Shown here in pieces: positions 16,078 to 28,470 of a stretch of DNA of 35,306 nt. Each line of letters starts with the position of its first letter. The stretch's first letter is position 1. The stretch covers positions 1 to 35,306 of the forward strand of contig DASYQB010000115.1 in the NCBI GenBank assembly GCA_036005985.1, read 5' to 3'. The stretch comes from Candidatus Methylomirabilota bacterium. GTDB lineage: Bacteria > Methylomirabilota > Methylomirabilia > Rokubacteriales > CSP1-6. A program made the translations under genes and the position numbers. The notes under the pieces were generated by a model. It saw nothing but the letters and a program-made list of their open reading frames with translations, was not told where the DNA came from and did no database searches.

Positions 16078-16101
16078 CCGCGCGCAGGCGAGAAAGGACT
16101 C

Positions 16102-16704
16102 ATGGCGACCACGCAGATCCACACGATTCCCGCCCGACGGGGCGCCGCGGCGCGAGTGGCCGCGGGCCAGCGGGTCAAGGTCATCAATACCCACGGCACC
16201 CAGGTCGTCGACACCTGGGCCTTCAATGCGGGCGACGCCACGGAGTGGATGTCCATGGAGGCCAGCCGCGCGTGGTTCCTGAAGCTGCGCGCCGCCGTCG
16301 GCGACGCCTTCCTCACGAACCAGCGGCGGCCCATTCTGACCCTGATCGAAGACACCTCGGGGAGGGCCCACGACACCCTCATGGCCGCCTGTGATCTGCC
16401 GCGGTACCGGCTGCTCGGGGTCGAAGGCCATCACGACAACTGCCGGGACAATCTGCACGCGGCGCTGGCCGGCCTCGGCATCACGGTGCCCGCCACGCCG
16501 TCACCGCTCAACCTGTTCATGAACATTCCCTGGACGCCCGACGGGACGCTCGCCTGGGCCGAGCCCATCTCCCCGCCCGGGAGCTACGCCGTCTTCCGCG
16601 CGGAGATGGATCTGGTCATCGCCTTCTCTGCCTGTCCCCAGGACATCCTGCCCATCAACGGCCGCACCGGATCGACCACCGAAGCGCACTACGTCATCGA
16701 GTAG
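16102..16704 (+). CDS. DUF1989 protein, smaller paralogue
   Basis: AAAGGA lies upstream of the ATG. IPARRGAAARVAAGQRVKVINTHGTQVVDTWAFN is clearly paralogous to the preceding gene. Confidence 0.7.
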   Translation: MATTQIHTIPARRGAAARVAAGQRVKVINTHGTQVVDTWAFNAGDATEWMSMEASRAWFLKLRAAVGDAFLTNQRRPILTLIEDTSGRAHDTLMAACDLPRYRLLGVEGHHDNCRDNLHAALAGLGITVPATPSPLNLFMNIPWTPDGTLAWAEPISPPGSYAVFRAEMDLVIAFSACPQDILPINGRTGSTTEAHYVIE

Positions 16705-18760
16705 GAGATGGCGAGGACGGGGCGGCGCTCTGGAGGCGCGTCAGCTCCTCCGCGGGAATGTGGCAGACGATCCGGTGGCCGCTCGAGATCTCCCGCGTGG
16801 GCGGCGGGGTGTCGTCACAGATCGCGCCGATCCGGCGGGGGCAGCGCCCACTGAACGGGCAGCCGCTCGGCATGTCCGTGGCGCTGGGGAGCGGGCCCTC
16901 GAGGATGATGCGGATGCCCTGGGCATCGGGGTCGGGCACGGGAACGGCCGACAGGAGCGCTTCCGTGTATGGATGGAACGGCGGCGCGAAGACATCGGCG
17001 ACGGAGCCGACCTCGACCACGGCGCCCAGATACATCACCGCGACGTGATCGGCGAGGTATCGCACGACGGACAGGTCATGAGAGATGAAGACCAGGGTCG
17101 CCTCGCGCGAGGCCTGGATCTCGTTCAGCAGGTTGATGATGGACGCCTGCACGGACACGTCGAGAGCCGACACGGGCTCGTCGGCCACGATCACGTCTGG
17201 ATTTCCGGCGAGCGCGCGCGCGATGGCCACCCGCTGCTTCTGGCCCCCGGACAACCGGTCGGGCTTGCGGTCGCCGAGGTCGGTGGGCAGCTTGACCACG
17301 CCGAGGAGCCGCGAGGCCTCCCTCGCCGCCTCGCCTTTCGGGGTCCGCCGCAGGCGCCGGAGTGCCCGCCCGATGGCATAGCCGGCGCTGTGGCTCGGAT
17401 TCAGCGTGCTGTCGGGGTTCTGGAATACCATCTGGATCGTCCGTCTGAGCTCGAGAGGTCGCGACTCGACACGCATCGAGGCGACCTCCCTCCCTCCGAT
17501 CTCGACGCGGCCGGCGCTCGCCGTCTCGAGACCGGCGAGGACCTTGGCCAGCGTCGACTTGCCGCAGCCCGACTCGCCGACAATGGCCAGCGTCTCACCC
17601 TTGCGGACGACGAGGTCGATGCCGTTGAGCGCGCGCACCGGTGCCCGCCCCGATCTGAAGAGTCCCGGCCGCGGGCGATACAGCTTCTCGAGGCCCTCGA
17701 CCCTGAGCACGATCGGGCCCGAGCGCCGGCCCCGCGCCGCATCCGCCACGGCCCGCCGTCGCTCCCATGGCGGAAGCTCGGCAGCACGGACGCATTGCGC
17801 CGCGTGACCGGGATCACCGGTCACCGGCAGGGCGGGAATCGCCTCGGACGTGCATCGGCCCGGCTCGACATGGACGCAGCGCGCCGCGAAGCCGCAGCCG
17901 GCCGGTCGCACGAGCGCGGAGGCGACCTGCCCGGGAATTGGCACGAGGGGCGTCTGCCGCTTGTCGCGGCCAAGGGTGGGGAGACAGTCCAGCAGCCCGC
18001 GCGTGTACGGGTGGCGCGGATTCGCGAACACCTGCCGGATCGATCCCGCCTCGACGAGCTCGCCCGCGTACATGACGCCGATCCGGTCGCAGACCCGCAC
18101 CACGGTGCCGAGGTTGTGGCTGATGAAGAGCACGGACGTGCCGTGGCGCCGGCGAAGCTCACGGACGAGGTCGAGCACGGCCGCCTCCACCGTGACGTCC
18201 AGGCCGGTGGTGGGCTCATCCATGATCAGGAGGGCGGGCTCGGCGATGAGGGCCATGGCGATCACGATGCGCTGCTGCTGGCCGCCCGAGAGCTGATGCG
18301 GGTAGCGCGCCAGCATGCTCTCGCCGTCGAGCAGCTTGACCTCCGCGAGCATGTCGAGGGCCCGGGCCCGAGCCGCCCGCTCGCCCAGGCCCTCGTGGAG
18401 CATCGGTACCTCCATGAGCTGGCGACCCACCGTCATTACCGGGTTGAGGCTTGCCATCGGATCCTGGTAGACCATGGCGACCCGGCGTCCCCGCATCTCC
18501 CGGAGCTCTGACGGGCTCAGACCGGCGACGTCGCGCCCCTCGAAGAGGATGCGCCCCCCCGTGATCCGGCCCGCCCGGCCGAGATAGCGGACGATGGCGA
18601 GGGCCACCGTGGACTTGCCGCAGCCGGATTCGCCGACCAGTCCCATCGCCTCTCCCGCACCGAGGGCGAAGCTCAGGCCGGGGATGACATTCACCTCTCC
18701 GGCGCGGGTGAAGTACGAGATGCGGGCGTGGTCCAGCTCGAGAATCGGCTCGTCAGTCAC
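16694..18760 (-). CDS. Dpp/Opp/Gsi-type ABC transporter ATP-binding protein with two fused ATPase domains (GsiA-like)
   Basis: Two complete ABC cassettes: GESGCGKST…LSGGQQQR…LIMDEPTTGLD and GESGCGKSTLAK…LSGGQKQR…IVADEPVSALD. Each is followed by an oligopeptide-type C-terminal region. Confidence 0.9.
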   Translation of the reverse strand: MTDEPILELDHARISYFTRAGEVNVIPGLSFALGAGEAMGLVGESGCGKSTVALAIVRYLGRAGRITGGRILFEGRDVAGLSPSELREMRGRRVAMVYQDPMASLNPVMTVGRQLMEVPMLHEGLGERAARARALDMLAEVKLLDGESMLARYPHQLSGGQQQRIVIAMALIAEPALLIMDEPTTGLDVTVEAAVLDLVRELRRRHGTSVLFISHNLGTVVRVCDRIGVMYAGELVEAGSIRQVFANPRHPYTRGLLDCLPTLGRDKRQTPLVPIPGQVASALVRPAGCGFAARCVHVEPGRCTSEAIPALPVTGDPGHAAQCVRAAELPPWERRRAVADAARGRRSGPIVLRVEGLEKLYRPRPGLFRSGRAPVRALNGIDLVVRKGETLAIVGESGCGKSTLAKVLAGLETASAGRVEIGGREVASMRVESRPLELRRTIQMVFQNPDSTLNPSHSAGYAIGRALRRLRRTPKGEAAREASRLLGVVKLPTDLGDRKPDRLSGGQKQRVAIARALAGNPDVIVADEPVSALDVSVQASIINLLNEIQASREATLVFISHDLSVVRYLADHVAVMYLGAVVEVGSVADVFAPPFHPYTEALLSAVPVPDPDAQGIRIILEGPLPSATDMPSGCPFSGRCPRRIGAICDDTPPPTREISSGHRIVCHIPAEELTRLQSAAPSSPSPTR

Positions 18761-19649
18761 GGAGCCCGATCTCGCGAAGACCCACGGCGAGGAGATTGAA
18801 GCCGATCACGAGGGAGGAGATCGCCGCGCAGGGGAAGAGCGCCATGTGCGGCCACACCGACATCATGCCGTAGGTGTCCTTGACCATGCCGCCCCAGTCG
18901 GGATCAGGGGGGGGCAGGCCGATGCCGAGGAAGCCGAGGGCGCCGATGATGACGACGTTGTATCCGGTGCGCAGGCACATGTCCACGATCAGGGGGCCCC
19001 GCGCGTTGGGCAGGATCTCCGCCAGCATGATGTAGAGCGGCGACTCGCCGCGCATCTTCGCCGCCGCCACGTACTCCCGCTCGCGCAGCTCGATGGTGAG
19101 GCCACGCACGATGCGCGCGATGATGGGGGCCTTGGTCAGGGTGAGCACGGCGATGATGTTGAAGGCCGACGAGCCGAAGTGGGCGAGGATGATCATGTAG
19201 AGAATGATCACGGGGAAGGACAGCACGATGTCGCACGCGCGCGCGATCACGAGATCGATCCAGCCGCGGTAGTAGCCGGCGGCGAGCCCGAGGAGTGAGC
19301 CCAGGAAGGCCGCCCCCAGCACGGCGAGGGGAGCCACCGTCAGCACGGTCCGCGCTCCCCACAGGATGCGGGAGAGCAGGTCGCGTCCGAGGTGATCGGT
19401 GCCGAGCCAGTGCGCGGCTGACGGCGTCGGGTGCGCCACAGCGGCCATGCTGGTGGCATTGGGCGGATAGGGAGCGATCAGGGGCGCCAGCACCGCCGCG
19501 AGCACCCACGCGAGGACAATGCCCGCCCCGATCAGCGCCGGCTTCGATTCCGCCACGAGGCCGAGCCGGCGCGCCCACGCCCGCGCGAATCCCAGGGGCA
19601 CGCGCTCCGGAACCGCGGGAAGGCTTTCGGCCGTGGCGGGAATAGTCAT
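18753..19649 (-). CDS. Dpp/Opp-type ABC transporter permease (DppC-like)
   Basis: 298 aa, multi-TM, with DppC/OppC-like sequence. Its stop overlaps the ATPase start by 8 nt. Confidence 0.85.
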   Translation of the reverse strand: MTIPATAESLPAVPERVPLGFARAWARRLGLVAESKPALIGAGIVLAWVLAAVLAPLIAPYPPNATSMAAVAHPTPSAAHWLGTDHLGRDLLSRILWGARTVLTVAPLAVLGAAFLGSLLGLAAGYYRGWIDLVIARACDIVLSFPVIILYMIILAHFGSSAFNIIAVLTLTKAPIIARIVRGLTIELREREYVAAAKMRGESPLYIMLAEILPNARGPLIVDMCLRTGYNVVIIGALGFLGIGLPPPDPDWGGMVKDTYGMMSVWPHMALFPCAAISSLVIGFNLLAVGLREIGLRD

Positions 19650-19656
19650 CCGGGCT

Positions 19657-20664
19657 TCAGGTCCGTATGCGCGGGTCGAGCAGCATGTACGCGAGATCGC
19701 CCGCGATCTGGGTCAGCACGGCCACGCCGACCGCGACGAGGGCGCCCACCTCCACGAGAGCGATGTCCTTGAAGAGCGCCGCCTCGAGCATCATCCGGCC
19801 GAAGCCCGGGTACGCGAACACCGTCTCCACCACCACCACGCCGGAGATCAGGTAGTTGATCTGGAGCAGGATGACGGTGATGGGGTTGATCATCGCGTTC
19901 CGGAGGGCATGGCGGACCACCACCCGGCGAAAGGCCATGCCTTTCAGGATCGCCGTGCGGATGTAGGGCCGCTGCATCACCTCGATCATCGACGCGCGGA
20001 TCATGCTGACGACATAGCCGGCGTCGAAGAGCACGATGACCGCCACGGGAAGGATGAGCTGTGAGCCGACCGACCAACCGCCTCCCGCCACCATCGTCGC
20101 GGTGCCCGGGAGCCAGCCGAGGGCGACCACGAAGACGCTGGCGAGAAAGACGCCGAGGGCGAACTCGGGCACCGAGGCGACCACCGTGCTGAACAAGAGA
20201 ATCGCGCGGTCGAGCGCGGAGGACTCACGCATGCCGGCGACGATGCCGAGGAGCATCGACAGCGGCACGATGCAGGCGAAGGCGAGCGCGGCGAGAAAGG
20301 CGGTATTGCCCAGGCGGCCCCAGATGATGTCCTTGACGGGCACTTTGAAGCGGGTCGACGTGCCCAAATCGCCCCGGGTCAGCTTGCCGAGGAACTCCAC
20401 GTAGCGCACGAGGACCGGTCGATCGAGTCCCAGGTCGCGCGTGAGGATGTCCACCTGCTCCTGGGTCGCGTAGGCGCCGAGGACCTTCCGGGCGACGTCG
20501 CCGGGGGAAAACTCGTTGAGGGTGAAGACGAGGAAGGACACCACGAGGAGCGTGAGGAGCAGGAAGGCCACGTGCTTGAGGGCGAATCGCGCCACGGTGA
20601 GCGCCACCCTACCGCTGTCCGCGGGCAGCGTCAACGGCCGGCCTCCGCGCGTGAGCTCTGGCAC
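19657..20664 (-). CDS. Dpp/Opp-type ABC transporter permease (DppB-like); start uncertain
   Basis: Multi-TM and DppB-like (…LLTLLVVSFLVFTLNEFSPGDVARKVLG…). Possible starts are GTG 20664, TTG 20634 (GGAGG 7 nt upstream) and GTG 20607. Confidence 0.8.
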   Translation of the reverse strand: MPELTRGGRPLTLPADSGRVALTVARFALKHVAFLLLTLLVVSFLVFTLNEFSPGDVARKVLGAYATQEQVDILTRDLGLDRPVLVRYVEFLGKLTRGDLGTSTRFKVPVKDIIWGRLGNTAFLAALAFACIVPLSMLLGIVAGMRESSALDRAILLFSTVVASVPEFALGVFLASVFVVALGWLPGTATMVAGGGWSVGSQLILPVAVIVLFDAGYVVSMIRASMIEVMQRPYIRTAILKGMAFRRVVVRHALRNAMINPITVILLQINYLISGVVVVETVFAYPGFGRMMLEAALFKDIALVEVGALVAVGVAVLTQIAGDLAYMLLDPRIRT

Positions 20665-20800: not shown

Positions 20801-21715
20801 ATGGAGACACCCATCCTCGATCGGCCCATCCCGGAATCGTCCACTCCCTGGCCCCTCAGCGCACCCGAGTCGTATGTGCTGTTGCACGGCCCGCGAGCAA
20901 AAAGCGTCGAGGCCTTCAAGCGGGGGCTCCTCGAGCTCGTCGCCCGTGATGTGCTCACCGTGGAGACGCGGGAGCGACGGGGCTTCTTCCGTTTCTTCAC
21001 GGCCCGGACCACCTTTCTTCTCAGGGGCCCGAAGATGCCGTGGGTACACTCGGCCGCGCAGCCTCTGCGCAGCATCTGGGAAATTTACAGTAGGACCTGC
21101 ATCAGCGTCTCGCCGGCTGAGCCACGGGGCGTGCGAGTTCGCGATCTCCGGCGATCCGCGCGTGTGCTCGGCACTCCTCTCAGAGACTTTACCTACTGGT
21201 CCGTCCTGCCCGCTTTGATGGAGCGTGGACTCTACGAACGCGACGACTATGCGGCGCCGCGGACCTCTCGAAGGTCGAGATACACGGAGACCACGGCCGG
21301 GAGAGCCGCGCGGATCAGGCTCGAGTCGTTGCTGGAGAGCGCTGATCGTGAATTCAGCCCGGCCGCGCGGAGGGATCCGGGCGAGGCCCTGGCCATAGCC
21401 GGCGGGCTCGGATCGGCCATCCTCCTCATGGACCCTCTGCTGTCCGAGATAGCATGGCTCGGCCAGCGGATTCGTGACGGTGTCGGAAACATCGCCATGG
21501 CCGGCCGCTTCGAGCTGAACACGTCGAGCATCGATCTCGACGTCATCGATCTGGGCTGGCCGGGCAAGCTCGATGGAGTATTCGATGCCGTTGGCGATAT
21601 GGGGAGTGGTGATCGTGGCGGTGGGGACTGGGGCTGGAGTGACGGCGACGGTGGCAGCGGCTGGAGTGATGGCGACGGTGGGGGCGGCTGGGGTGACGGC
21701 GGAGGCGGCGACTGA
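20801..21715 (+). CDS. Hypothetical protein with C-terminal Gly/Asp/Trp repeat tail
   Basis: It has a strong SD but no domain I recognise. There is one hydrophobic stretch (ALAIAGGLGSAILLM), and the tail is GDWGWSDGDGGSGWSDGDGGGGWGDGGGGD. Codon usage is atypical (AGT, AGG, AGA, TTT, ATT) compared with its neighbours. Confidence 0.6.
   Translation: METPILDRPIPESSTPWPLSAPESYVLLHGPRAKSVEAFKRGLLELVARDVLTVETRERRGFFRFFTARTTFLLRGPKMPWVHSAAQPLRSIWEIYSRTCISVSPAEPRGVRVRDLRRSARVLGTPLRDFTYWSVLPALMERGLYERDDYAAPRTSRRSRYTETTAGRAARIRLESLLESADREFSPAARRDPGEALAIAGGLGSAILLMDPLLSEIAWLGQRIRDGVGNIAMAGRFELNTSSIDLDVIDLGWPGKLDGVFDAVGDMGSGDRGGGDWGWSDGDGGSGWSDGDGGGGWGDGGGGD
21632..21712 (+). repeat. Three in-frame tandem 27-bp units encoding GW(S/G)DG(D/G)GG(S/G/D)
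   Basis: Units at 21632-21658, 21659-21685 and 21686-21712, read directly. They end at the TGA at 21713. Confidence 0.8.
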
Positions 21716-21834: not shown

Positions 21835-22665
21835 GTGGCGGCCTTTTCGCCGTTCCATTTTCACCGGGTCTTCCTCGCGCTCACCGGCGAGACGCTCTTC
21901 GCCTATATCCAGCGCCAGCGGATCGAGAAGGCCGCGGGCGTCCTCGCCGCGGGTGGGGAAACCAGCGTCCTCGAGGTGGCGCTCGATCATGGCTTCGCCT
22001 CCGCCGCCACCTTCGCCCGAGCCTTCCGCGTCCGCTTCGGCATGACCGCGAGCGAATGGCGGCGCGGTGGGGCGGCGCGCTGGCGCGAGCGGCACCTGCG
22101 CAAGATGGGCAAAGAGTTTCGCAAGACGGGCAAAGCATCCGGCCGGCGCCGGCCCGATACTCCTCCCACCCACGCCCGGGAGGCCGCCATGAGCGTCGTC
22201 GTCAGGGAGCTTGCCACGCAGCACGTGGCGTACATGCGCTACGTCGGGCCTTACGGAGCGCAGGGCATTCCGGAGCTCTGGACACGCCTCCGTCGGTGGA
22301 TGGAAACCCGCGGCCTCGAGGTCGCCTCCACCGTCCGGCTCGGCGTCGCCTACGATGACGCCGGAGTGACCGAGCCCGCGAAGTGCTCCTATGACGCCTG
22401 TGTCGTGGTGCCACCCGCCTTTGCCGTCGATCGCTGGGTGAATCTCATGGACGTCCCCGGCGGGAGATACGCGGTGACCGGCTTCCACGGCCCGGCTCAC
22501 CAGATCGAGAGCGCGTGGCACGAGGTCTTCGCGGATTGGTTACCCGGGAGCGGGTATCAGCCCGATGATCGCGCCTGCTTCGAGACCTATCGTGGGGCGC
22601 CACCCTCGGGCTCGAAGACCGGGACCTTTCGCTGCGATCTCTGCCTTCCGGTGCGCCCGCTGTGA
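21835..22665 (+). CDS. AraC-family transcriptional regulator with C-terminal GyrI-like effector domain; the true start is probably upstream of the listed GTG
   Basis: AraC HTH (FSPFHFHRVF…TFARAFRVRFGMTASEWRR) and a GyrI-like C-terminus are present. Family-conserved N-terminal sequence (EYEKRVNRVIDHIRERLDEPLTLAGLA) is encoded in frame upstream of 21835, but no ATG/GTG/TTG occurs there. Confidence 0.75.
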   Translation: MAAFSPFHFHRVFLALTGETLFAYIQRQRIEKAAGVLAAGGETSVLEVALDHGFASAATFARAFRVRFGMTASEWRRGGAARWRERHLRKMGKEFRKTGKASGRRRPDTPPTHAREAAMSVVVRELATQHVAYMRYVGPYGAQGIPELWTRLRRWMETRGLEVASTVRLGVAYDDAGVTEPAKCSYDACVVVPPAFAVDRWVNLMDVPGGRYAVTGFHGPAHQIESAWHEVFADWLPGSGYQPDDRACFETYRGAPPSGSKTGTFRCDLCLPVRPL

Positions 22666-23192: not shown

Positions 23193-24293
23193 TCAGGCGA
23201 AGCGCGAGCTGGACCCCGATCGATCCGCGGCCGCCGATTTCCCCCACGGGGCGCCATGCATCCCGTTCTCGCCCTCGAACACGCCCGCACGAGACAGGGG
23301 CGGGCCGGTCCCGGGGGTTCCCGAAGAGTCCGCGCCACGACCGCTCGGGCGATCGGTGATCGATCGGTCAGGGTCGCCCGACCGCCGGAGGAGGGCGAAG
23401 GTCCACACCAGCCACACGTAGGGCGCGGACAGCGCATGAACCCCTACCGCTCCCGCGAGTCGCAATGCCGCCGCCTCCAGGAAGGGAATGGTCACGATGG
23501 TGATGGCCACGGCGGCCACTCCGATGCCCGCGAAGCGCCGCAATGCCGCGGCCGCGATGAGGGCGGCGGTGAAGCCCGCGAGCCCCGTCTCCACCTGCCA
23601 CGCGGGGGTGCCGGCAAGATAGCCCATGCCCACGGCCGCGATGGATGCTCCCACCATGGCCACGCCGAGACGGCGATCGGCAATCGACGCGGCGATAGCC
23701 AGGCCCACTCCCACCGCCGCGTTCGGGAGAAAGAAGATCTGCCCTACCCCCCGGAGGCCGCCCAGAAGAATGACGAGGAGCGGAGAGGCGGGCGCGGGGG
23801 GGACGGTGGGAAGCACGGCAACCTTGTTCCACGCGAAGGTGGTGAGCGCGCTCCAGAGGAGCCAGAAAGCCGGCACGTAGGGACCGATGACGAGCGGAAT
23901 CTCCCAGGCCGCGAGCAGGCGGTACATCACGATCGAGAGACCACTCACGAGCACGCCGCCAAGAACGAGGGAGACGGCGAGGCTCGGGCCCACGGCAAAA
24001 AAGGTCGCGCAGGCCAGGCCGAGAAACCAGCCGTTCAGCTCGACGAGCCCGGTGTCGAGGAAGGTGGATGACACGCCCCCGCACTCGGCGGTGACCCGGG
24101 CGATCACGCTCGCGATCATGCCCGCCACCGCGAGATGGGGAGCGGCCACGGCCAGCACGACGACGGCGGCCAGCCCCACCCACGCGTCGTATACGAAGAA
24201 TGTCTGGCCGATCGCGGCGAGATGTCGTATGACGACTCGCCGCGCCCGGCTCAGGAAGTCATCCAACCAGCGCGGTGGCCGTCCACTGGCCAT
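23193..24293 (-). CDS. Urea transporter (UT/SLC14) family-like integral membrane protein
   Basis: Two homologous halves each carry the UT-type motifs: AAIGQTFF…GLVELNGWFLGLACATFF and LRGVGQIFFLPNA…GLAGFTAALIAAAAL. A non-membrane tail of about 70 aa follows. Confidence 0.55.
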   Translation of the reverse strand: MASGRPPRWLDDFLSRARRVVIRHLAAIGQTFFVYDAWVGLAAVVVLAVAAPHLAVAGMIASVIARVTAECGGVSSTFLDTGLVELNGWFLGLACATFFAVGPSLAVSLVLGGVLVSGLSIVMYRLLAAWEIPLVIGPYVPAFWLLWSALTTFAWNKVAVLPTVPPAPASPLLVILLGGLRGVGQIFFLPNAAVGVGLAIAASIADRRLGVAMVGASIAAVGMGYLAGTPAWQVETGLAGFTAALIAAAALRRFAGIGVAAVAITIVTIPFLEAAALRLAGAVGVHALSAPYVWLVWTFALLRRSGDPDRSITDRPSGRGADSSGTPGTGPPLSRAGVFEGENGMHGAPWGKSAAADRSGSSSRFA

Positions 24294-24876
24294 TGACGAG
24301 CTCGTGGTCGCCCCACTTGAGGGGCACGGGGATCTCGGCGCGAATCGCGAGATGGCCGTGGTGACCGCTCTGCGTCCCCGGCTCGAGCCAGAATCCCTCG
24401 GTGGGATCGTAGATGCGCGCCTGGTCGGCCTCGGTGCGCACCACGCTCACCTCGTGATAGACCACGCGCGTGCCAATCCAGTTGAAGGCGGTGGGGATGG
24501 CGTCCCACTTCCGGCGCCAGTGGCTGATTCTCTCCTCCGCGCACCCGCGCAGGAGCTGTCCCGGATACGCCTCGATACCCTTGGCGCGGAACAGCTCGAG
24601 GGCGAAGGCGCCGAAGACGCCGCAGTCGATCGTCTCCGCCTTGACCGCCTCGCACCACGCTACTGGCCAGCGGATCGGTCCCCACGCCCATCGCTGGGTG
24701 ATCCAGCGTGGCCCGGCGAGAGCGAGACCGTCCGTGGAGGAGAAATCGTAGGAGCGCCCCATGGCGATCAGCCAGGCGCGCGCGCGGTCGCAGCAGGGGC
24801 CGTGGTGGGTCAGCGTCGACCCTACCGCCTGCTTCCACTCGTCGCGCTCAGGAGTATCCGCCACGCCCGAACGCAT
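24259..24876 (-). CDS. Transglutaminase-like (papain-fold Cys-His-Asp) superfamily protein
   Basis: Candidate triad: Cys85 (IDCGVFGAFALELFRAKGIEA), His141 (VVYHEVSVV) and Asp157 (RIYDPTEG), with core-like spacing. The ATG at 24876 lies 8 nt after an AAGGAG embedded in the upstream gene. Confidence 0.6.
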   Translation of the reverse strand: MRSGVADTPERDEWKQAVGSTLTHHGPCCDRARAWLIAMGRSYDFSSTDGLALAGPRWITQRWAWGPIRWPVAWCEAVKAETIDCGVFGAFALELFRAKGIEAYPGQLLRGCAEERISHWRRKWDAIPTAFNWIGTRVVYHEVSVVRTEADQARIYDPTEGFWLEPGTQSGHHGHLAIRAEIPVPLKWGDHELVNGQWTATALVG

Positions 24877-27103
24877 AGCTCATACTCCTTTCATAGGCCC
24901 CTGCATCGCAGATCACCAGCCGGTCGCCGATCTTGAGAGTGTCCGGCAGATCGAGGCCCTGGGAGAGAACGTCGTCCTCCATGCAAATGCGGCCGAGGAC
25001 ACGCACCGGGCCACGTGATACCGGTACCGGCCGCTCGTCCACGAGATGGAAGAACCGGTGCGGATACACGGAGGCGAGGGGCAGCTCGGCGATGCAGGCG
25101 TCCACCACCACCTCCTGCAGCTTGCCCTCTTGCTGCCGCACGTCGAGGACGCTCGTCACCATGGCCATGGTCGCCTGGGTCAGGGCGCGTCCCGGCTCCA
25201 CGTAGACCGCGGTCAGGCCCGACAGCGTGTTCCGGGCGAAGCGGACGATGTCCCGGAAGGGCAGGCGCGCGAAATCGTCGGGATGGTAGCCCCCGCCGAG
25301 ATCGAGGGCGCGAACGCGACGCCCGGAAGCGGCCTCGATGGCTCCCGCCCACGCCACGGACGACTCCGCCACGTCACGCCAGTGCCCCACGCCGATCATG
25401 GTGCTCGCCATGTGCACGTGGATGCCGAGGTCACGGCCCGGCGGGAGGGCGGCCACCGCCGCGCAGAGGCGCTCGAAATCCGCCGGCTCGTCCACGGAGA
25501 CGCCGAAGCGCGACCGGCTTCCCGGAATCCGGAGGCGCACGCCCCACAGGCCGTCCGTTCGACGGGAGCCGGCCAGCCGCTCGAGCTCCTCCACCGAGTC
25601 GCAGAACACGACACGCAGCCCGTCCACCGCGCGCTCGGTGGGCGGCCACCACTTGCCGGGGCCGTTCAGCACGATCTCGTCGGCTCGCCAGCCCGCCTCG
25701 AGGGCCCGCCGCACCTCGAGCAGGCTGATGCACTCCGCGAGCATGCCTGCCTTGCGCGCGAGCATCAGGTACTCGGCATCGGGACTGGTCTTGAGGCTGT
25801 ACGCGTAGCGTAGGAGGATGCCCTCCACCGGCGCCACGGTGGGCAGGCGTCCGAAGGCCGCCTCGGCGGTGCGAGGAAGAAAGAGCCGGTGGGGTGTGGC
25901 AACCACCGCGGCCGTGGCGAGGAGATCAGCCTCGCTCTCGGGAGAAAGGGTGGGCGCGGCGGCGGTCGGCGCCTCGTCCGGAACGAGCATGGGCACGATG
26001 GCGGAGAGCGAGGCGCCGTACTTGCCATGGACGCCCAGCTGCCCATGCTCGGGCTCCACGGGCAGGGGCAGCGGTATTCCGGAGCGGACCGGCACTTCGA
26101 GGACGACGCGGGTGAACTCCGCCTGCGCCGAGAAGGCCCGCGGGCCGTCGGGGAGCCCGAGGGCGCGACGGACGAGGGCGGCGGGAAGATTTCGCCCCGC
26201 CAAGGTCGCTCCGTGCACCCAGGCGGGAAAGCGCGGATTCCACTCGAGCCACCAGCGTCGTCCGTCGACGTCGCGCAGCACCTCGATCTCCGCTCCGCCC
26301 GTCCAGCCGATGGCCCGCACCGCCGCTTCGATGGGGCCGAGGAGATCCGCGGGCAGCTCGCCCACGTGCCCCGCCCATGTCTTGCCTTCGGGCGTGGTGA
26401 TGCGCTTGCGCATGTAGAGCGCGTCGCAGAGCCGGCCGTCGTAGGCGGCGAGACAGACGGACTCCTCGTAGCCACGCACGTGAACCTGGACGGACAGGCG
26501 ATCGGTCTGCCAGCCCTCGCGCATCCAGGCACGCACCTGCTCGAGCTGGCGCCAGTCTCCCACCGCCACCGCCTCGTGGTAGGGCCCCTTGATCCACACC
26601 CGCCAGGAGTGGGCGCGGCAGAAGGCGTAGATCTCCTCGTCGGAGGCGGAGAGATCCAGCGACGGCGCGATCTCGAACGGCAGGAGCTCGGCCACGCTGG
26701 GACGCGGCTTGCGGCTGGGCGCGAGCGCCTTTTCGTCCGGGGCGAGGAGGAGCGGATGGGTCGCCAGGGTGCGCGCGAGCCACGCCACCTCGAGATCCAG
26801 GGTGGGAATCCACAGCGCGCCCTGGTCGAGCTCCGCCTGCACTTCCTTGGCGTAGAGATCTTCTTCGATGAGGTCCCAGGGTGGCTTCAGCCAGGTCGCG
26901 TCGAACACCTCATGGTGAAGACCGGAGCTCCCCGCCCAGTAGTCGACGCCCACCAGCTGCGCGGAGGGGAATGCCGCGCGCACGGAGCGCGCGACGCCCA
27001 GCCCCGCCGACGGGCTGGGACCGGAGTAGAGACCCGAGATGAAGACGGTTTCTTTCATCGCCTTGTCGCCCCCCGCGTGGGGCGTGCCTGCGGCTCCCGT
27101 CAT
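24848..27103 (-). CDS. Fusion protein: N-terminal ATP-grasp ligase domain + C-terminal PLP-dependent Orn/DAP/Arg decarboxylase (fold-type III) domain
   Basis: The N-terminal half has ATP-grasp-like features (RVWIKGPYHEAVAV, GGAEIEVLRD, WWLEWNPRFPAWV). The C-terminal half has YSLKTSP (PLP Lys), HVHMAS, LDLGGGY, EPGRAL, GRICMEDDVL and DAGAYERSMSYAF. An alternative start is the ATG at 27058 (MKETVFISG). Confidence 0.75.
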   Translation of the reverse strand: MTGAAGTPHAGGDKAMKETVFISGLYSGPSPSAGLGVARSVRAAFPSAQLVGVDYWAGSSGLHHEVFDATWLKPPWDLIEEDLYAKEVQAELDQGALWIPTLDLEVAWLARTLATHPLLLAPDEKALAPSRKPRPSVAELLPFEIAPSLDLSASDEEIYAFCRAHSWRVWIKGPYHEAVAVGDWRQLEQVRAWMREGWQTDRLSVQVHVRGYEESVCLAAYDGRLCDALYMRKRITTPEGKTWAGHVGELPADLLGPIEAAVRAIGWTGGAEIEVLRDVDGRRWWLEWNPRFPAWVHGATLAGRNLPAALVRRALGLPDGPRAFSAQAEFTRVVLEVPVRSGIPLPLPVEPEHGQLGVHGKYGASLSAIVPMLVPDEAPTAAAPTLSPESEADLLATAAVVATPHRLFLPRTAEAAFGRLPTVAPVEGILLRYAYSLKTSPDAEYLMLARKAGMLAECISLLEVRRALEAGWRADEIVLNGPGKWWPPTERAVDGLRVVFCDSVEELERLAGSRRTDGLWGVRLRIPGSRSRFGVSVDEPADFERLCAAVAALPPGRDLGIHVHMASTMIGVGHWRDVAESSVAWAGAIEAASGRRVRALDLGGGYHPDDFARLPFRDIVRFARNTLSGLTAVYVEPGRALTQATMAMVTSVLDVRQQEGKLQEVVVDACIAELPLASVYPHRFFHLVDERPVPVSRGPVRVLGRICMEDDVLSQGLDLPDTLKIGDRLVICDAGAYERSMSYAFGRGGYS
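24885..24890 (-). promoter_or_regulatory. Shine-Dalgarno (AAGGAG) for the transglutaminase-like gene, embedded in the last codons of the upstream fusion gene
   Basis: The minus strand reads GAA AGG AGT ATG AGC TAT GCG (E R S M S Y A). This is an unusually AT-rich run of codons for this genome. Confidence 0.6.
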
Positions 27104-27291
27104 CGTCCGTGCGAAGGTGTGTAGTGGCCCGCCGGCCGGGGCGCAGTCAGCGAGTGTCCACCGGGGATGCCCGTGGCGCGGTCCTTACCGCAAAAAAAGC
27201 GCCAATTCAGTGCCGCTTTTAGAGACGAGGCTTTGGCAGACGCGAAGATTATCCGGATCTGCGAATCGTAAGGAAACTCGACAGACGCCAC
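27100..27291 (-). CDS. Candidate 63-codon ORF, or alternatively a non-coding leader, upstream of the ATP-grasp fusion gene
   Basis: The GTG at 27291 lies 18 nt after the MFS stop, and the ORF's stop overlaps the 27103 ATG as ATGA. However, it has low GC3 compared with neighbouring genes, no recognisable domain, and it contains a T7 run. Confidence 0.25.
   Translation of the reverse strand: MASVEFPYDSQIRIIFASAKASSLKAALNWRFFCGKDRATGIPGGHSLTAPRPAGHYTPSHGR
27192..27220 (-). terminator. Weak hairpin followed by a T7 run on the minus strand (possible terminator or attenuator downstream of the MFS gene)
   Basis: The minus strand reads AAAAGCG-GCACTGAATTGG-CGCTTTTTTT. The stem has only 3 G:C pairs plus A:U pairs and a 12-nt loop. 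Confidence 0.2.
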
Positions 27292-27309
27292 ACCGACCCG
27301 GCGCGCAGA

Positions 27310-28470
27310 TCAGCGCGCCACGCAGTACGTCCGGAACGCGAGGAATGCGAGGGCCCCCAGGACCACGGCGAGGACGCCGAGCGCCGTCTCCATTCCCAGC
27401 CGATCTACCATGGCCCCGATGGGCGGACCGGCCACCACGAAGGACAGCCGGAACACGAGGGTGGCGATCGAGAGGACGCTCGCCCGGTCCTCGGGCGGCG
27501 CGTCCTGCTGCATCACCGTGGCGAGAATCGGCCCTTGCAGTCCACGGATCGTCATGAAGCAGAGGTAGAAGATGATGCCCCACGCGGCGTGGCTCAGGGA
27601 CAGCCCGGCATAACCGAGGGGAACGAGCAGGCAGCAGCCGAGGAGAGCCAGGCGCAAGCCGAGGGCCCCCACCACGCGCGAGCTGGCCAGCGATACCGCG
27701 GCCAGCCACACGTGCGCGCATGCCCAGAGCGGACCGAACCACGCCGCGGGAATGCCGCGGGCCTGCATGTAGGGCTGGATGAGCCAGATCATCACGAAGG
27801 TCGACAAGCCGAGGGCGACGCTGAGCGCCATGGCGGCGCGCAGTCTCCGGTGGTGCCAGAGCGTGAAGCCGATGATATGGAGAGCGCGCTCGGTGTGGGA
27901 GCGGCCTCCGGCCCCGCGCGGGCGCGGGACCTCGTACAGCAGGGCCGCGGTGGAGAGGGCCAGCGCGGCCGCCGGCACCTGGAGCCAGAAAGGCCAGCGC
28001 GGCCCCATCGCGTAGAGCCAGCCGCCGGCCGCCGCGCTCAGCGCCTCGGCGGACTGGGAGACGGCGCGGATCCGGCCGTCCCAGCGCGTGTACTGCGCGG
28101 TGCGGCTCGCGCCGTCCAGGGAGACCCAGAGGAGGGCGCGATCCGCCCCCGACATGAAGGCACTCCCCGCCCCCAGCGCGGTCTCGGCAACCGCCACCGC
28201 CCAGAAGCTCTCCGCGCGCGTGTAGAGAAGCCATCCCGCCATGAGAAGCCCGGTGCTCGCGAGGAGCGACCAGCGATAGCCCACCCGATCGGCCACGTAT
28301 CCCGACGGGAACTCGAAGAGCACCACGGCCAGCCCGAAGATGGCCTGAAGGACCATGATGTCGGCGAGCGACATCCCGATCTGATCCTTCCAGAAAAGCG
28401 TGATGATCGGGATGGGGAAGAGGATGAACTGGAAGGTGGCGAAGGCGATGAGCAGCCGGACATTTCTCAT
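27310..28470 (-). CDS. MFS transporter
   Basis: 386 aa, about 12 TM segments, with motif-A-like PSGYVADRVGYRWS. Confidence 0.8.
   Translation of the reverse strand: MRNVRLLIAFATFQFILFPIPIITLFWKDQIGMSLADIMVLQAIFGLAVVLFEFPSGYVADRVGYRWSLLASTGLLMAGWLLYTRAESFWAVAVAETALGAGSAFMSGADRALLWVSLDGASRTAQYTRWDGRIRAVSQSAEALSAAAGGWLYAMGPRWPFWLQVPAAALALSTAALLYEVPRPRGAGGRSHTERALHIIGFTLWHHRRLRAAMALSVALGLSTFVMIWLIQPYMQARGIPAAWFGPLWACAHVWLAAVSLASSRVVGALGLRLALLGCCLLVPLGYAGLSLSHAAWGIIFYLCFMTIRGLQGPILATVMQQDAPPEDRASVLSIATLVFRLSFVVAGPPIGAMVDRLGMETALGVLAVVLGALAFLAFRTYCVAR

What the first reader, a model, noticed from the sequence alone, without database searches (positions are those of the whole stretch)
23193..27291. 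Candidate undescribed cassette: ATP-grasp::PLP-decarboxylase fusion + transglutaminase-like protein + UT-family channel, chained by overlapping frames
Seen: three minus-strand genes are chained by out-of-frame overlaps. The fusion gene (24848-27103) overlaps the start of the transglutaminase-like gene by 29 nt. That gene (24259-24876) overlaps the start of the UT-like gene (23193-24293) by 35 nt. This implies co-translation and probably fixed stoichiometry. Established parallels: glutathionylspermidine synthetase/amidase pairs an ATP-grasp amide synthetase with a Cys-hydrolase amidase. Butirosin BtrJ/BtrK pairs an ATP-grasp ligase with a PLP decarboxylase. Tabtoxin genes pair a LysA-like decarboxylase with an ATP-grasp ligase. 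Inference: the fusion makes an amine by decarboxylation and ligates it to a carboxylate (or ligates first, then decarboxylates). The Cys-His-Asp protein would hydrolyse or transfer the amide, and the channel would move a small polar amide- or urea-like compound. I know of no characterised pathway with this fusion plus these partners.
Basis: partly seen in the sequence, partly recalled or inferred. Interest (0 to 1): 0.8.

Follow-up and report, generated by a model that had tools for sequence, protein, structure and literature searches.

The report
Conserved ligase-decarboxylase, thiol enzyme, channel cassette
Three translationally chained genes form a real, widely conserved but uncharacterised bacterial cassette that most likely makes and processes a small amide-linked amine; they encode an ATP-dependent ligase fused to a PLP decarboxylase, a new family of Cys-His-Asp enzyme, and a urea-transporter-family membrane protein.

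Summary
Three minus-strand genes overlap out of frame:
- Fusion gene, 27058-24848. The true start is probably 27058, not 27103.
- A 205-aa gene, "p205", 24876-24259. It overlaps the fusion by 29 nt.
- A UT-family gene, 24293-23193. It overlaps p205 by 35 nt, or by 8 nt if a TTG start is used.

The fusion is not an artefact. At least 588 species genomes encode a relative. Its N-half is an ATP-grasp. Its C-half is an alanine-racemase-fold PLP decarboxylase with all catalytic motifs. Its substrate-pocket features resemble FigC/FslC, which decarboxylates an already conjugated amino acid.

p205 follows the fusion in 50 of 51 testable loci. An AGGAG Shine-Dalgarno sequence lies inside the decarboxylase's last conserved codons. 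p205 matches no Pfam, NCBIfam or PDB sequence. An invariant Cys85/His141/Asp157 and its predicted fold place it loosely among transglutaminase-like thiol enzymes.

The UT gene is an accessory. I found the full trio in 14 distinct loci, each with different flanking genes. Distant relatives have split genes next to PqqD and a UT::M23-peptidase fusion.

No characterised homologue and no paper was found. The closest mechanistic precedents are BtrJ/BtrK, CtaD/CtaF/CtaG and FigA/FigC. The chemistry remains an inference. I rate it a new variant of a known kind, of moderate-to-high interest.

The parts
24848..27058 (-). Fusion gene (736 aa plus stop): ATP-grasp::linker::PLP decarboxylase. The ORF is open up to ATG 27103, but 27058 is the likely start.
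   Evidence: ORF. 943 homologues, mostly 735-760 aa and full length. At least 588 species genomes. In-frame TAG upstream of the MKETVF start in L001/L003. AF2 model pLDDT 84.5, pTM 0.83.
26099..27058 (-). ATP-grasp ligase domain (aa 1-320)
   Evidence: Profile A4 against PDB: 2pn1 at 1.5e-10, then biotin carboxylases and Ddl. PF15632 is hit by 16 of 16 family members. Invariant G158, E198, E257, E259, E272-x-N274-P-R-F-P-A-W; K157 nearly invariant. Homologous to stand-alone ATP-grasp genes in the split-gene clade.
25904..26098 (-). Inter-domain linker (aa 321-385). Variable in length and low in confidence. It carries an invariant Lys346.
   Evidence: pLDDT below 50 at aa 337-350. Variable-length spacer and invariant K in the GKYG / LKHPSG motif.
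24851..25903 (-). Alanine-racemase-fold PLP decarboxylase domain (aa 386-736) of the DAPDC/FigC/BtrK clade
   Evidence: PF02784 at 1e-12 and PF00278 at 7e-10, both above cut-off. Invariant K423 (YS[LI]KT), H547xH549, GGG588-590, EPG 621-623 (window R624 is not in the invariant list), C692-M-E-x-D696, D718-A-G-A-Y722. PDB profile hits: FigC 7kh2 1.4e-38, DAPDC 4e-28, BtrK 6e-22. Foldseek 1e-18. FigC-like C-M and P-x-x-x-x-Y-x-H specificity helix.
24885..24889 (-). Shine-Dalgarno AGGAG for p205, inside the decarboxylase's conserved Y-E-R-S-M-S-Y codons, 8 nt before ATG 24876
   Evidence: Sequence. The same GAxAGGAGyATGnnnT-ATG arrangement occurs in 44 of 61 loci across phyla.
24259..24876 (-). 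p205: 205-aa cytoplasmic protein of a new, unannotated family with a transglutaminase-core-like Cys85/His141/Asp157. Codons: C85 24624-24622, H141 24456-24454, D157 24408-24406. It also has H25, C28, C29, C75 and many invariant Trp.
   Evidence: No Pfam, NCBIfam or PDB sequence hit. Invariant residues. AF2 pLDDT 85, pTM 0.84. Weak Foldseek hits almost all from the transglutaminase/NAT/papain-like clan. 367 clusters among 1.84 billion representatives. Directly 3' of the fusion in 50 of 51 loci. Rare ATP-grasp::decarboxylase::p205 and p205::UT fusions.
23193..24293 (-). UT-family (urea-transporter-fold) membrane protein, 366 aa from ATG 24293. An alternative TTG start lies at 24266. The C-terminal ~45 aa are not conserved.
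   Evidence: PF03253 at 6e-30, 104.8 bits. Below the Yut equivalog cut-off, 77.9 against 274.6. dvUT 3k3f at 3e-12. 81% identical to the L001 homologue over aa 2-325. Follows p205 in 14 distinct loci.
27059..27309 (-). 5' leader / intergenic region between the upstream MFS gene and the fusion. No recognised RNA element.
   Evidence: No Rfam hit. No promoter or terminator consensus. Conserved only at the level expected for close relatives. No small ORF conserved across clades.

Best explanation
This is a self-contained, horizontally spread operon for an NRPS-independent 'ligate, then decarboxylate' amide pathway.

Proposed steps:
1. The ATP-grasp domain activates a carboxylate as an acyl-phosphate and joins it to a nucleophile. 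The result is an amino acid tethered through its side chain, with its alpha-amino and alpha-carboxyl groups still free.
2. The fused PLP decarboxylase removes the alpha-carboxylate of that conjugate, leaving an amide-linked (or thioester-linked) amine.
3. The translationally coupled Cys-His-Asp protein p205 then acts on the amide or thioester through an acyl-Cys85 intermediate. It either releases or hydrolyses the product, or transfers the acyl group to an acceptor.
4. Where present, the UT-family protein is the membrane conduit for a small uncharged product, by-product or substrate of that step.

Shown:
- Domain identities and intact catalytic residues.
- A FigC-like substrate pocket.
- Conserved fusion, gene order and translational coupling.
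- A recurrent link to UT in two deep clades.

Inferred:
- The order of reactions.
- The chemistry of p205.
- What passes through the UT pore.
- The identity of every substrate.
For: Fusion and adjacency:
- The ATP-grasp and decarboxylase are fused in at least several hundred genomes. They are adjacent as separate genes in a distant clade at 23-27% identity. This marks them as one functional unit.

Catalytic competence:
- All ATP-grasp and PLP motifs are invariant.

Pocket and closest relatives:
- The best solved relative by profile is FigC/FslC (1.4e-38). It is followed by DAPDC, D-Orn/Lys decarboxylase, BtrK and SbnH.
- In the published tree, FigC, SbnH, AcsE, MccE and BtrK all decarboxylate amino acids already conjugated through the side chain, and they cluster with DAPDC (PMC7857480).
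[quoted passage not shown] FigC has Met there (M355), and this family has invariant M693.
- The DAPDC Arg that binds the distal carboxylate of meso-DAP aligns to Leu. The window reads ELPLASVYPH where the plant DAPDC reads ELIRPSLY. The 3-10 specificity helix matches FigC's P-T-I-S-T-Y-R-H pattern.

Precedents:
- BtrJ/BtrK and CtaD/CtaF show that an ATP-grasp plus an Orn/DAP/Arg-family decarboxylase cooperate on tethered Glu or Asp.
- In closthioamide a papain-like enzyme (CtaG) and a transglutaminase (CtaJ) then do the acyl transfers (PMC7183216; PMC7898593).

p205:
- Invariant D84-C85-G86 sits at a helix N-terminus. H141-E142 and D157 sit on consecutive strands.
- Its weak fold matches are nearly all transglutaminase-like, NAT or papain-clan proteins, including CtaG.

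Coupling:
- p205 is 3' of the fusion in 50 of 51 loci, with a conserved internal SD.
- One triple fusion exists.

UT link:
- The trio recurs with unrelated flanks in 14 loci. They span Methylomirabilota, Actinomycetota, Polyangiaceae, Oligoflexia, Pseudomonas, Collimonas and Streptomyces.
- In the split clade UT is covalently fused to another peptidase-type domain, M23.
Against: - No substrate, product or activity is known for any member.
- The thiotemplated precedents need a carrier protein. No PP-binding gene appears in any of the nine annotated neighbourhoods.
- With the window protein alone, rather than the family profile, plant DAPDC scores slightly above FigC. DAPDC and D-Orn/Lys decarboxylase, which act on free amino acids, belong to the same clade, so 'decarboxylate first' is not excluded.
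- p205's fold assignment is weak: best Foldseek E 1e-2, TM at most 0.40, and no HMM hit.
- UT is absent from most fetched fused loci. Pyrinomonadaceae and Allosphingosinicella carry a soluble 232-aa partner instead. A channel is therefore not essential to the chemistry.
- The window's UT has substitutions in the pore motifs compared with dvUT.
- PqqD in the split clade hints at a peptide substrate rather than a small molecule.
Confidence: 0.42

Rival explanations
1. Peptide or protein modification system, either RiPP-like or a tagging/untagging cycle. The ATP-grasp would add an amino acid to a carboxylate or amine of a ribosomal peptide or protein. The decarboxylase would trim it to an amine. 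p205 would be the peptidase that removes a leader or reverses the tag, as the lasso B2 transglutaminase-like protease does, or as vasohibin does opposite the ATP-grasp TTL. UT would be a membrane anchor or exporter.
For: - Distant split-gene relatives carry a PqqD-family (RiPP recognition element) gene immediately upstream in 15 of 17 loci. They also carry a UT::M23 metallopeptidase fusion downstream.
- p205's weak fold neighbours include peptidases and isopeptidases: 3isr, PeiP/PeiW, and transglutaminase-like domains of axonemal proteins.
- The ATP-grasp/thiol-peptidase pairing in TTL/vasohibin is established knowledge, recalled from memory.
Against: - No PqqD gene and no conserved small ORF lies near the fused cassette in any clade examined.
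- No conserved precursor peptide was found even in the split clade.
- PLP decarboxylases need a free alpha-amine, which restricts possible peptide substrates to side-chain-attached residues.
- p205 and the M23 or C-terminal regions of UT::M23 are not homologous.
Confidence: 0.2
2. Polyamine-conjugate homeostasis of the glutathionylspermidine synthetase/amidase type. The decarboxylase would first make a diamine from a free amino acid. The ATP-grasp would ligate it to a carboxylate such as a thiol peptide or glutamate. p205 would be the opposing amidase that sets the steady-state level.
For:
- DAPDC and D-Orn/Lys decarboxylases, which use free substrates, are close relatives.
- p205 has many invariant Trp residues, as expected for a site that binds cationic amines. 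That last link is my inference.
Against: - The acidic residue that binds a free side-chain amine is replaced by invariant Met, as in FigC. The DAP-carboxylate Arg is also missing.
- There is no hit to GSP_synth or CHAP models.
- The UT partner has no obvious role in this scheme.
Confidence: 0.17
3. Urea or small-amide nitrogen metabolism. The UT protein would import urea or a related amide, and the enzymes would assimilate or transform it. For example, p205 could release urea or ammonia, or an acyl-urea could form.
For: - UT-family membership.
- UT genes in Pseudomonas, Collimonas and Streptomyces cassettes keep near-canonical pore motifs.
- Two DUF1989 genes, a family NCBI annotates as urea-carboxylase-associated (recalled from memory), lie about 6.5 kb away in the window at 15250-16704.
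Against: - The DUF1989 neighbourhood is shared only with near-identical relatives. It is absent from the other trio loci.
- Most fused loci lack UT.
- No urease, urea carboxylase or allophanate hydrolase is linked.
- PLP decarboxylases do not act on urea derivatives that lack an alpha-amino acid.
Confidence: 0.08

Closest known systems
Closthioamide CtaD / CtaF / CtaG / CtaJ (Ruminiclostridium cellulolyticum)
   Same: It uses the same three enzyme types: an ATP-grasp, an Orn/DAP/Arg-family PLP decarboxylase acting on a tethered amino acid, and Cys-His-Asp papain- or transglutaminase-type acyl transferases (PMC7183216, PMC7898593).
   Different: - It works on two phosphopantetheinyl carrier proteins (CtaE, CtaH). 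No carrier gene accompanies this cassette.
- Its genes are separate, not fused.
- p205 shows no sequence similarity to CtaG or CtaJ and only marginal fold similarity to CtaG (E 0.5-1.5).
- It has no UT partner.
Butirosin BtrJ / BtrK (with BtrI, BtrH, BtrG)
   Same: The ATP-grasp BtrJ ligates Glu through its side chain. The AR-fold decarboxylase BtrK then removes the alpha-carboxylate. BtrK is a PDB hit of the C-half at 6e-22.
   Different: - The substrate is Glu-S-BtrI, an ACP. No ACP is present here.
- Release uses an acyltransferase and a gamma-glutamyl cyclotransferase, not a thiol enzyme.
- The genes are not fused, and there is no UT.
Rhizoferrin FigA/FslA + FigC/FslC (also SbnH, AcsE)
   Same: It follows the 'ligate, then decarboxylate' logic. 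FigC is the closest solved relative by profile (1.4e-38). It shares Met after the catalytic Cys and a neutral specificity helix with Tyr.
   Different: - The ligase there is an NIS synthetase, not an ATP-grasp.
- The window protein scores far below the NCBIfam FslC cut-off, 67 against 500.
- This family has acidic E694 and D696 where FigC has Q356, H357 and D358, so the distal group recognised is probably different.
- No siderophore genes are linked.
Glutathionylspermidine synthetase/amidase (GspS)
   Same: An ATP-grasp amide synthetase is physically coupled to a Cys-nucleophile amidase acting on the same amide.
   Different: - The amidase there is a CHAP domain fused to the N-terminus.
- There is no decarboxylase.
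- No hit to those families was found here.
Bacterial urea channels (dvUT 3K3F, Yut, ApUT)
   Same: Same Pfam family and the same two-repeat membrane fold.
   Different: - Only 22% identical to dvUT.
- Below the Yut equivalog cut-off.
- Pore motifs are substituted: GQTFFV for GQVMFQ, GLVELNGWF for GLFGFNGTL, GQIFFLPN for GEVMFQDN, GLAGFTAAL for GLYGFNSVL.
- Genetically coupled to a peptidase-like enzyme rather than to urease or urea metabolism.

Membership tests
ATP-grasp superfamily (N-half of the fusion) | Significant profile similarity to ATP-grasp families | tested here: met
   Family profile A4 against PDB: 2pn1 at 1.5e-10 over aa 62-301, then biotin carboxylases and Ddl. PF15632 is hit by 16 of 16 members, best 1.2e-12. 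The window protein alone scores 21.3 bits, below the 29.1 cut-off.
ATP-grasp superfamily (N-half of the fusion) | Conserved nucleotide- and Mg-binding residues (Lys in the central domain, E-x-N near the C-terminal domain) | tested here: met
   K157 nearly invariant. E198, E257, E259 and E272-x-N274-PRFPAW invariant across the fused and split clades. Assigning roles to these residues is from general knowledge.
ATP-grasp superfamily (N-half of the fusion) | ATP-dependent carboxylate-nucleophile ligation via an acyl-phosphate | not testable with these tools
   Needs an enzyme assay.
Alanine-racemase-fold PLP decarboxylases (Orn/DAP/Arg family) | Pfam PF02784 and PF00278 above gathering scores | tested here: met
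   48.4 bits against 23.4, and 39.5 against 23. Foldseek 1e-18 to DAPDC, ADC and BtrK.
Alanine-racemase-fold PLP decarboxylases (Orn/DAP/Arg family) | Schiff-base Lys, Gly-rich phosphate loop, EPGR, catalytic Cys loop, DxGAY | tested here: met
   K423, G588-G590, E621-P-G623, C692 and D718-A-G-A-Y722 are conserved in 23 diverse members (G590, A719 and A721 in 90% or more; R624 is not in the conserved lists).
Diaminopimelate decarboxylase LysA (equivalog) | NCBIfam TIGR01048 cut-off, and the Arg on the specificity helix that binds the distal carboxylate of meso-DAP | tested here: not met
   100.4 bits against 297.9. The Arg position in ELIRPSLY aligns to Leu in ELPLASVY.
N-citrylornithine decarboxylase FigC/FslC | NCBIfam NF041039 cut-off, and FigC pocket residues (M355, H357, T327, T330, Y331) | tested here: not met
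   67.4 bits against 500. Met after Cys, and Tyr and His on the helix, are shared. H357, T327 and T330 are replaced by D695, L661 and V664. The pocket is FigC-like, but this is not FigC.
Transglutaminase-like / papain-like thiol enzymes (p205) | Match to a curated model (Transglut_core, CHAP, NLPC_P60, NAT and similar) | tested here: not met
   0 families for p205. Of 79 family members, one hits Transglut_core, at E 0.084. The profile finds nothing in PDB sequences at E up to 10.
Transglutaminase-like / papain-like thiol enzymes (p205) | Cys at the N-terminus of a helix, followed by His and Asp on successive beta-strands, all conserved | tested here: met
   D84-C85-G86, H141-E142 and D157 are invariant in A2 and A3 (E142 invariant, the others in 90% or more of the 79 sequences of A6). 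In the model, a helix spans 85-98 and strands span 138-147 and 152-157. The 3D juxtaposition of the three residues could not be measured.
Transglutaminase-like / papain-like thiol enzymes (p205) | Significant structural similarity to a member | tested here: inconclusive
   No Foldseek hit at E 1e-3 or better. Best E is 1e-2 with TM at most 0.40. Yet nearly all of the top 50 hits belong to this clan: 3isr, PeiP/PeiW, NATs, TG2, CtaG, TglA, and (assigned from memory) the axonemal chains.
Urea transporter family UT (PF03253) | Pfam gathering score | tested here: met
   104.8 bits against 25, covering aa 25-303. dvUT at 3e-12.
Urea transporter family UT (PF03253) | Equivalog to characterised urea channels, and conserved pore motifs | tested here: not met
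   TIGR03441 scores 77.9 against 274.6. All four pore-motif segments carry substitutions. Identifying these segments as pore-lining is recalled from the dvUT literature, not re-derived here.
Urea transporter family UT (PF03253) | Urea conductance | not testable with these tools
   Needs a flux assay.
Thiotemplated ATP-grasp/decarboxylase pathways (BtrIJK, CtaDEF) | Carrier protein (PP-binding) gene in the cluster | tested here: not met
   No PP-binding family appears among the called neighbours in nine loci.
Thiotemplated ATP-grasp/decarboxylase pathways (BtrIJK, CtaDEF) | ATP-grasp and AR-fold decarboxylase encoded together | tested here: met
   Fused here. Adjacent in the split clade.
RiPP pathway with RRE (for example lasso B1/B2) | PqqD-like RRE and a precursor peptide gene next to the enzymes | tested here: not met
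   Neither was found in the window or in fused-clade loci. PqqD occurs only in the split clade, and no conserved precursor was found there.

The most novel reading that the evidence does not exclude
UT-family membrane proteins may have a second, unrecognised role as dedicated partners of cytoplasmic peptidase-type enzymes: p205 in this clade, and a covalently fused M23 domain in the split clade. The system would be ancient and would combine an ATP-grasp with a decarboxylase. It would build a decarboxylated aminoacyl amide, or modify a peptide, without any carrier protein. p205 might itself serve as the thiol template through its invariant Cys residues. The product would be handed straight to the pore.
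Probability: 0.2. Interest if true: 0.8.

Novelty: new variant of a known kind. Interest (0 to 1): 0.58.

Why it matters
If the model is right, this is a compact three-gene route to an unknown amide-linked amine metabolite, or to a peptide modification. It is carried by hundreds of soil and freshwater species across at least ten phyla. Carriers include culturable Pseudomonas, Collimonas, Streptomyces and Mycobacterium strains.

It would add four things:
- A natural ATP-grasp::PLP-decarboxylase didomain enzyme to the small set of 'ligate-then-decarboxylate' systems (BtrJK, CtaDF, FigAC).
- A new family of Cys-His-Asp enzymes, currently absent from Pfam and NCBIfam.
- The first functional context for UT-family proteins that is unrelated to urease or urea catabolism.
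- A clear example of a ribosome-binding site embedded in, and co-conserved with, an enzyme's catalytic C-terminal motif.

The cassette is small and self-contained, so it is directly testable by heterologous expression.

Tried and rejected
- Assembly or frameshift artefact for the fusion: rejected. Hundreds of full-length homologues exist.
- LysA, FslC, DokD, NspC or the exosortase-associated decarboxylase as the identity of the C-half: all are far below their curated cut-offs.
- Riboswitch or other known RNA in the 250-nt leader: no Rfam hit. No promoter or terminator consensus.
- Leader peptide or precursor ORF upstream of the fusion: nothing is conserved beyond close relatives. None was found in the split clade either.
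- Anti-phage defence system: no PADLOC hit.
- Direct sequence assignment of p205: no significant result from the single sequence, a 23-sequence profile, or 79 individual members against Pfam, NCBIfam and PDB.
- Homology between p205 and the M23 or C-terminal parts of UT::M23 proteins: hhalign probability below 1%.
- The upstream MFS and lipoprotein-like genes, and the downstream PNPOx-like and AraC/GyrI genes, as parts of the cassette: they are shared only with 94%-identical relatives. In those relatives two of them are truncated or split. They are absent from all other trio loci.
- The nearest ATP-grasp of known function could not be pinned down.
- Literature searches on eight term combinations found no description of the cassette.

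Full report
**1. The observation**

The window is about 69% G+C throughout, with no compositional break at the locus.
- The fusion ORF ends with TGA at 24850-24848.
- The 205-aa ORF, called p205 here, begins at ATG 24876, so the two overlap by 29 nt in different frames.
- p205 ends at 24261-24259.
- The UT ORF can start at ATG 24293 (35-nt overlap) or at the in-frame TTG 24266 (8-nt overlap, TTGGATGA). Gene callers chose the 8-nt equivalent in close relatives.

One correction concerns the fusion start. Homologues begin at MKETVF. The 94%-identical relatives L001/L003 have an in-frame TAG two codons upstream of that Met. The fusion gene is therefore 27058-24848 (736 aa), not 27103-24848. The stretch up to 27291 is 5' leader. 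It has no Rfam match, no consensus promoter or terminator, and no ORF conserved outside close relatives.

**2. What the proteins are**

*Fusion, C-half.*
- Pfam Orn_Arg_deC_N and Orn_DAP_Arg_deC both pass their cut-offs.
- In 23 homologues down to 43% identity the catalytic motifs are conserved: the Schiff-base Lys (K423 in YS[LI]KT), HxH 547-549, GGG 588-590, EPG 621-623 of the EPGR motif, C692-M-E-x-D696 and DAGAY 718-722.
- The AF2 model (pLDDT 84.5, pTM 0.83) matches DAPDC, viral ADC, D-Orn/Lys decarboxylase, BtrK, FigC and SbnH at E about 1e-18.
- By sequence profile the best solved relative is FigC/FslC (1.4e-38), ahead of DAPDCs (4e-28) and BtrK (6e-22).
- With the single window sequence, plant DAPDC is marginally ahead of FigC.
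- No curated equivalog claims the protein: LysA 100 bits against 297.9, FslC 67 against 500.

*Fusion, N-half.*
- Alone it only brushes PF15632 (E 9e-4, below cut-off).
- A profile of fused and split relatives hits ATP-grasp structures. These are 2pn1 at 1.5e-10 over aa 62-301, then biotin carboxylases and D-Ala-D-Ala ligases.
- All 16 members hit PF15632.
- K157 is nearly invariant; E198, E257, E259 and ExNPRFPAW (272-280) are invariant.

The two halves are joined by a variable, low-confidence spacer that contains one invariant Lys, K346.

*p205.*
- It matches nothing in Pfam, NCBIfam or PDB sequences. This holds for the single sequence, for a profile, and for 79 family members scanned one by one.
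- An exhaustive HMMER scan of 1.84 billion representatives finds a small closed family. It has 367 clusters, almost all about 200 aa.
- Invariant or near-invariant residues are H25, C28, C29, W65, G66, P71, W74, C75, D84-C85-G86, W124, W133, H141-E142 and D157.
- The segments DCGvFaaFAlElFrakGieay, vYHE and iYDPT have the pattern of the transglutaminase core. That comparison is mine, from memory of the family signature.
- The AF2 model is good (pLDDT 85, pTM 0.84). It puts C85 at the N-terminus of a helix, with H141 and D157 on successive strands.
- Foldseek finds no match at E 1e-3 or better. Its weak hits are nearly all transglutaminase-like, NAT or papain-clan proteins: 3isr, PeiP/PeiW, NATs, TG2, CtaG and TglA. 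I read the top axonemal chains as DRC7-like transglutaminase-like-domain proteins, from memory.

So 'Cys-His-Asp thiol enzyme of the transglutaminase-like fold class' is reasonable, but membership of any defined family is not shown. p205 has no hydrophobic segment or signal peptide, so it is cytoplasmic.

*UT.*
- PF03253 scores 104.8 bits and dvUT 3e-12.
- It is well below the Yut equivalog cut-off.
- Compared with dvUT, the four motif segments that I recall as pore-lining all carry substitutions in the window's subclade. The Pseudomonas, Collimonas and Streptomyces versions are closer to canonical.

**3. Conservation elsewhere**

The fusion family is large and unnamed.
- There are 943 hits.
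- Relatives occur in at least 588 of the species genomes scanned.
- Taxa include Methylomirabilota (the window's closest relatives, 94% identity), Actinomycetota, Acidobacteriota, Alpha-, Beta- and Gammaproteobacteria, Polyangiaceae, Oligoflexia, Verrucomicrobiota, Chloroflexota and Nitrospirales, plus one Bathyarchaeia bin.

p205 lies directly 3' of the fusion in 50 of 51 fused loci that have enough downstream DNA. The commonest overlap is 20 nt (28 loci).

At DNA level the junction reads GAxAGGAGyATGnnnT-ATG in 44 of 61 loci. An AGGAG Shine-Dalgarno is built from the codons of the decarboxylase's conserved Y-E/D-R-S-M-S-Y motif, 8 nt before the p205 ATG. The overlap encodes the low-confidence tails of both proteins: fusion aa 724-736 and p205 aa 1-10. 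This is direct evidence for conserved translational coupling. 'Fixed stoichiometry' remains an inference.

A single 944-aa ATP-grasp::decarboxylase::p205 protein and a p205::UT protein exist in metagenomes. Each is a single case and could result from a frameshift.

The UT gene follows p205 in 14 distinct loci:
- the window and L001-3;
- L004 (Polyangiaceae) and L007 (Actinomycetota);
- L009 and L051 (Oligoflexia);
- L025 (Pseudomonas akapageensis) and L032/L038 (Collimonas);
- L068 and L089 (Streptomyces);
- L087, L088 and the P0040 locus.

Every lineage has different flanking genes. The trio is therefore a self-contained, mobile unit.

UT is missing from most fetched loci.
- Pyrinomonadaceae and Allosphingosinicella carry a conserved soluble 232-aa gene next to the fusion instead (41 loci).
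- Mycobacterium sp. 94-17 has only the pair.

*The split clade.* A distant clade at 23-27% identity keeps ATP-grasp and decarboxylase as separate adjacent genes. It includes Bacteroidota, Leptospira, Cloacimonadota, Neomarinimicrobiota, Accumulibacter and a cyanobacterium.
- A PqqD-family gene precedes them in 15 of 17 loci.
- A roughly 730-aa UT::Peptidase_M23 fusion with intact HxxxD/HxH motifs follows, and no further hydrophobic segment comes after the UT domain in most of the proteins examined.
- p205 is absent from this clade and is not homologous to any part of the UT::M23 protein.

The ligase/decarboxylase unit is thus linked to a UT-family protein in two deep branches. Each time a peptidase-type domain is coupled to the UT, by translation in one branch and by covalent fusion in the other.

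**4. How it most likely works**

Published work shows that FigC, SbnH, AcsE, MccE and BtrK all decarboxylate amino acids already conjugated through their side chain. They form one clade with DAPDC (PMC7857480).

That paper names two specificity determinants.
- The first is the residue after the catalytic Cys. [quoted passage not shown] It is Met in FigC.
- The second is the 3-10 'specificity helix'. It carries Asp in the basic-substrate enzymes and Arg in DAPDC, where the Arg binds the DAP carboxylate. It is neutral Thr/Tyr in FigC.

In this family:
- The residue after Cys is invariant Met (C692-M693).
- The helix reads L-P-L-A-S-V-Y-P-H. It aligns residue for residue with FigC's I-P-T-I-S-T-Y-R-H and lacks the DAPDC Arg.
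- Deeper in the loop the family has invariant E694 and D696, where FigC has Q356 and D358. D695 takes the place of H357.

I infer that the substrate is a side-chain-conjugated amino acid whose distal part is cationic or an H-bond donor. Ligation by the ATP-grasp would then precede decarboxylation. BtrJ/BtrK and CtaD/CtaF are direct precedents for this cooperation. In closthioamide a papain-like enzyme (CtaG) and a transglutaminase (CtaJ) then carry out acyl transfers through a Cys-His-Asp triad (PMC7183216, PMC7898593).

By analogy p205 would form an acyl-Cys85 intermediate and hydrolyse or transfer the product. The UT protein would pass a small neutral product, by-product or substrate.

Weak points:
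- No carrier protein is encoded nearby in nine annotated neighbourhoods.
- p205's fold call is soft.
- UT is dispensable in many lineages.
- PqqD in the split clade hints at peptide substrates.

I put the general scheme at about 0.4. The rivals are peptide or protein modification (0.2), GspS-like polyamine-conjugate homeostasis (0.17) and urea or amide nitrogen metabolism (0.08).

**5. Comparison with known systems, and novelty**

The cassette works like the BtrJK, CtaDF(G/J) and FigAC systems, but it is a member of none.
- It has no carrier protein and no NIS synthetase.
- All curated cut-offs are missed.
- p205 is a new family.

Eight literature searches found no description of the fusion, of p205, or of a UT-peptidase link. 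It is not a PADLOC defence system.

I class it as a new variant of a known kind. The enzymology has precedent. The architecture, the third protein and the membrane partner do not.

**6. Verdict**

Interest is 0.58. This is a widespread, compact and experimentally tractable unknown with culturable carriers. It is assembled from familiar enzyme superfamilies and has no demonstrated product.

Noticed in passing
L069-L085 (e.g. L075:3913-8845): A distant clade has ATP-grasp and decarboxylase as separate genes. A PqqD-family gene precedes them in 15 of 17 loci. A ~730-aa UT::Peptidase_M23 fusion follows, and downstream lie a TPR protein and a 400-aa protein with no family. It looks like an undescribed RiPP-like or peptide-handling cluster.
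   Followed up: partly
L005:7269-7967 and 40 other loci: UT-less members (Pyrinomonadaceae, Allosphingosinicella, a Burkholderiaceae bin) carry a conserved soluble 232-aa gene next to the fusion. It has no Pfam or NCBIfam hit. It contains an HRDH...H motif that could be a metal or oxygenase site.
   Followed up: partly
L089:11910-12374 and L005:10976-11308: An AhpD/CMD-family (CxxC redox) gene follows the cassette in two unrelated lineages, Streptomyces natalensis and an Acidobacteria-like contig. It may be relevant to a Cys-dependent partner enzyme.
   Followed up: no
window 25990-26023 (aa 346 of the fusion, codon 26023-26021): An invariant Lys (K346, in the motif GKYG / LKHPSG) sits in the low-confidence linker between the ATP-grasp and decarboxylase domains. 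Its role is unknown. It may belong to a substrate loop or be a modification site.
   Followed up: no
window 15250-16077 and 16102-16704 (+): Two adjacent DUF1989 genes lie about 6.5 kb from the UT gene, beyond an Opp-type ABC transporter (16694-20664, minus strand). I recall DUF1989 as annotated 'urea-carboxylase-associated'. The neighbourhood is shared only with near-identical relatives.
   Followed up: partly
window 20801-21715 (+): A 304-aa ORF with a C-terminal Gly/Asp/Trp-rich repeat (GGGDWGWSDGDGGSGWSDGDGGGGWGDGGGGD) and no Pfam hit. It occupies a ~1.1-kb interval that is only ~200 nt in the 94%-identical relatives L001-L003. It is probably an insertion or a lineage-specific gene.
   Followed up: no
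window 21835-22665 (+) and 27310-28470 (-) vs L001-L003: The AraC/GyrI-like regulator and the 386-aa MFS gene are intact in the window. In the close relatives the regulator is split into 72- and 74-aa pieces and the MFS gene is truncated to 122-129 aa. These flanking genes appear to be decaying there while the trio stays intact.
   Followed up: no
L091:290-3124 (P0264) and P0268: Single metagenomic instances of an ATP-grasp::decarboxylase::p205 triple fusion (944 aa) and of a p205::UT fusion (447 aa). They may be true Rosetta-stone fusions. They may also be frameshift errors at the overlapping junctions.
   Followed up: partly
window 27103-27059 (-): In the window the fusion ORF is open for 15 extra codons upstream of the conserved start. 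Close relatives have a TAG there. Automatic annotation may therefore call the window gene 45 nt too long.
   Followed up: yes
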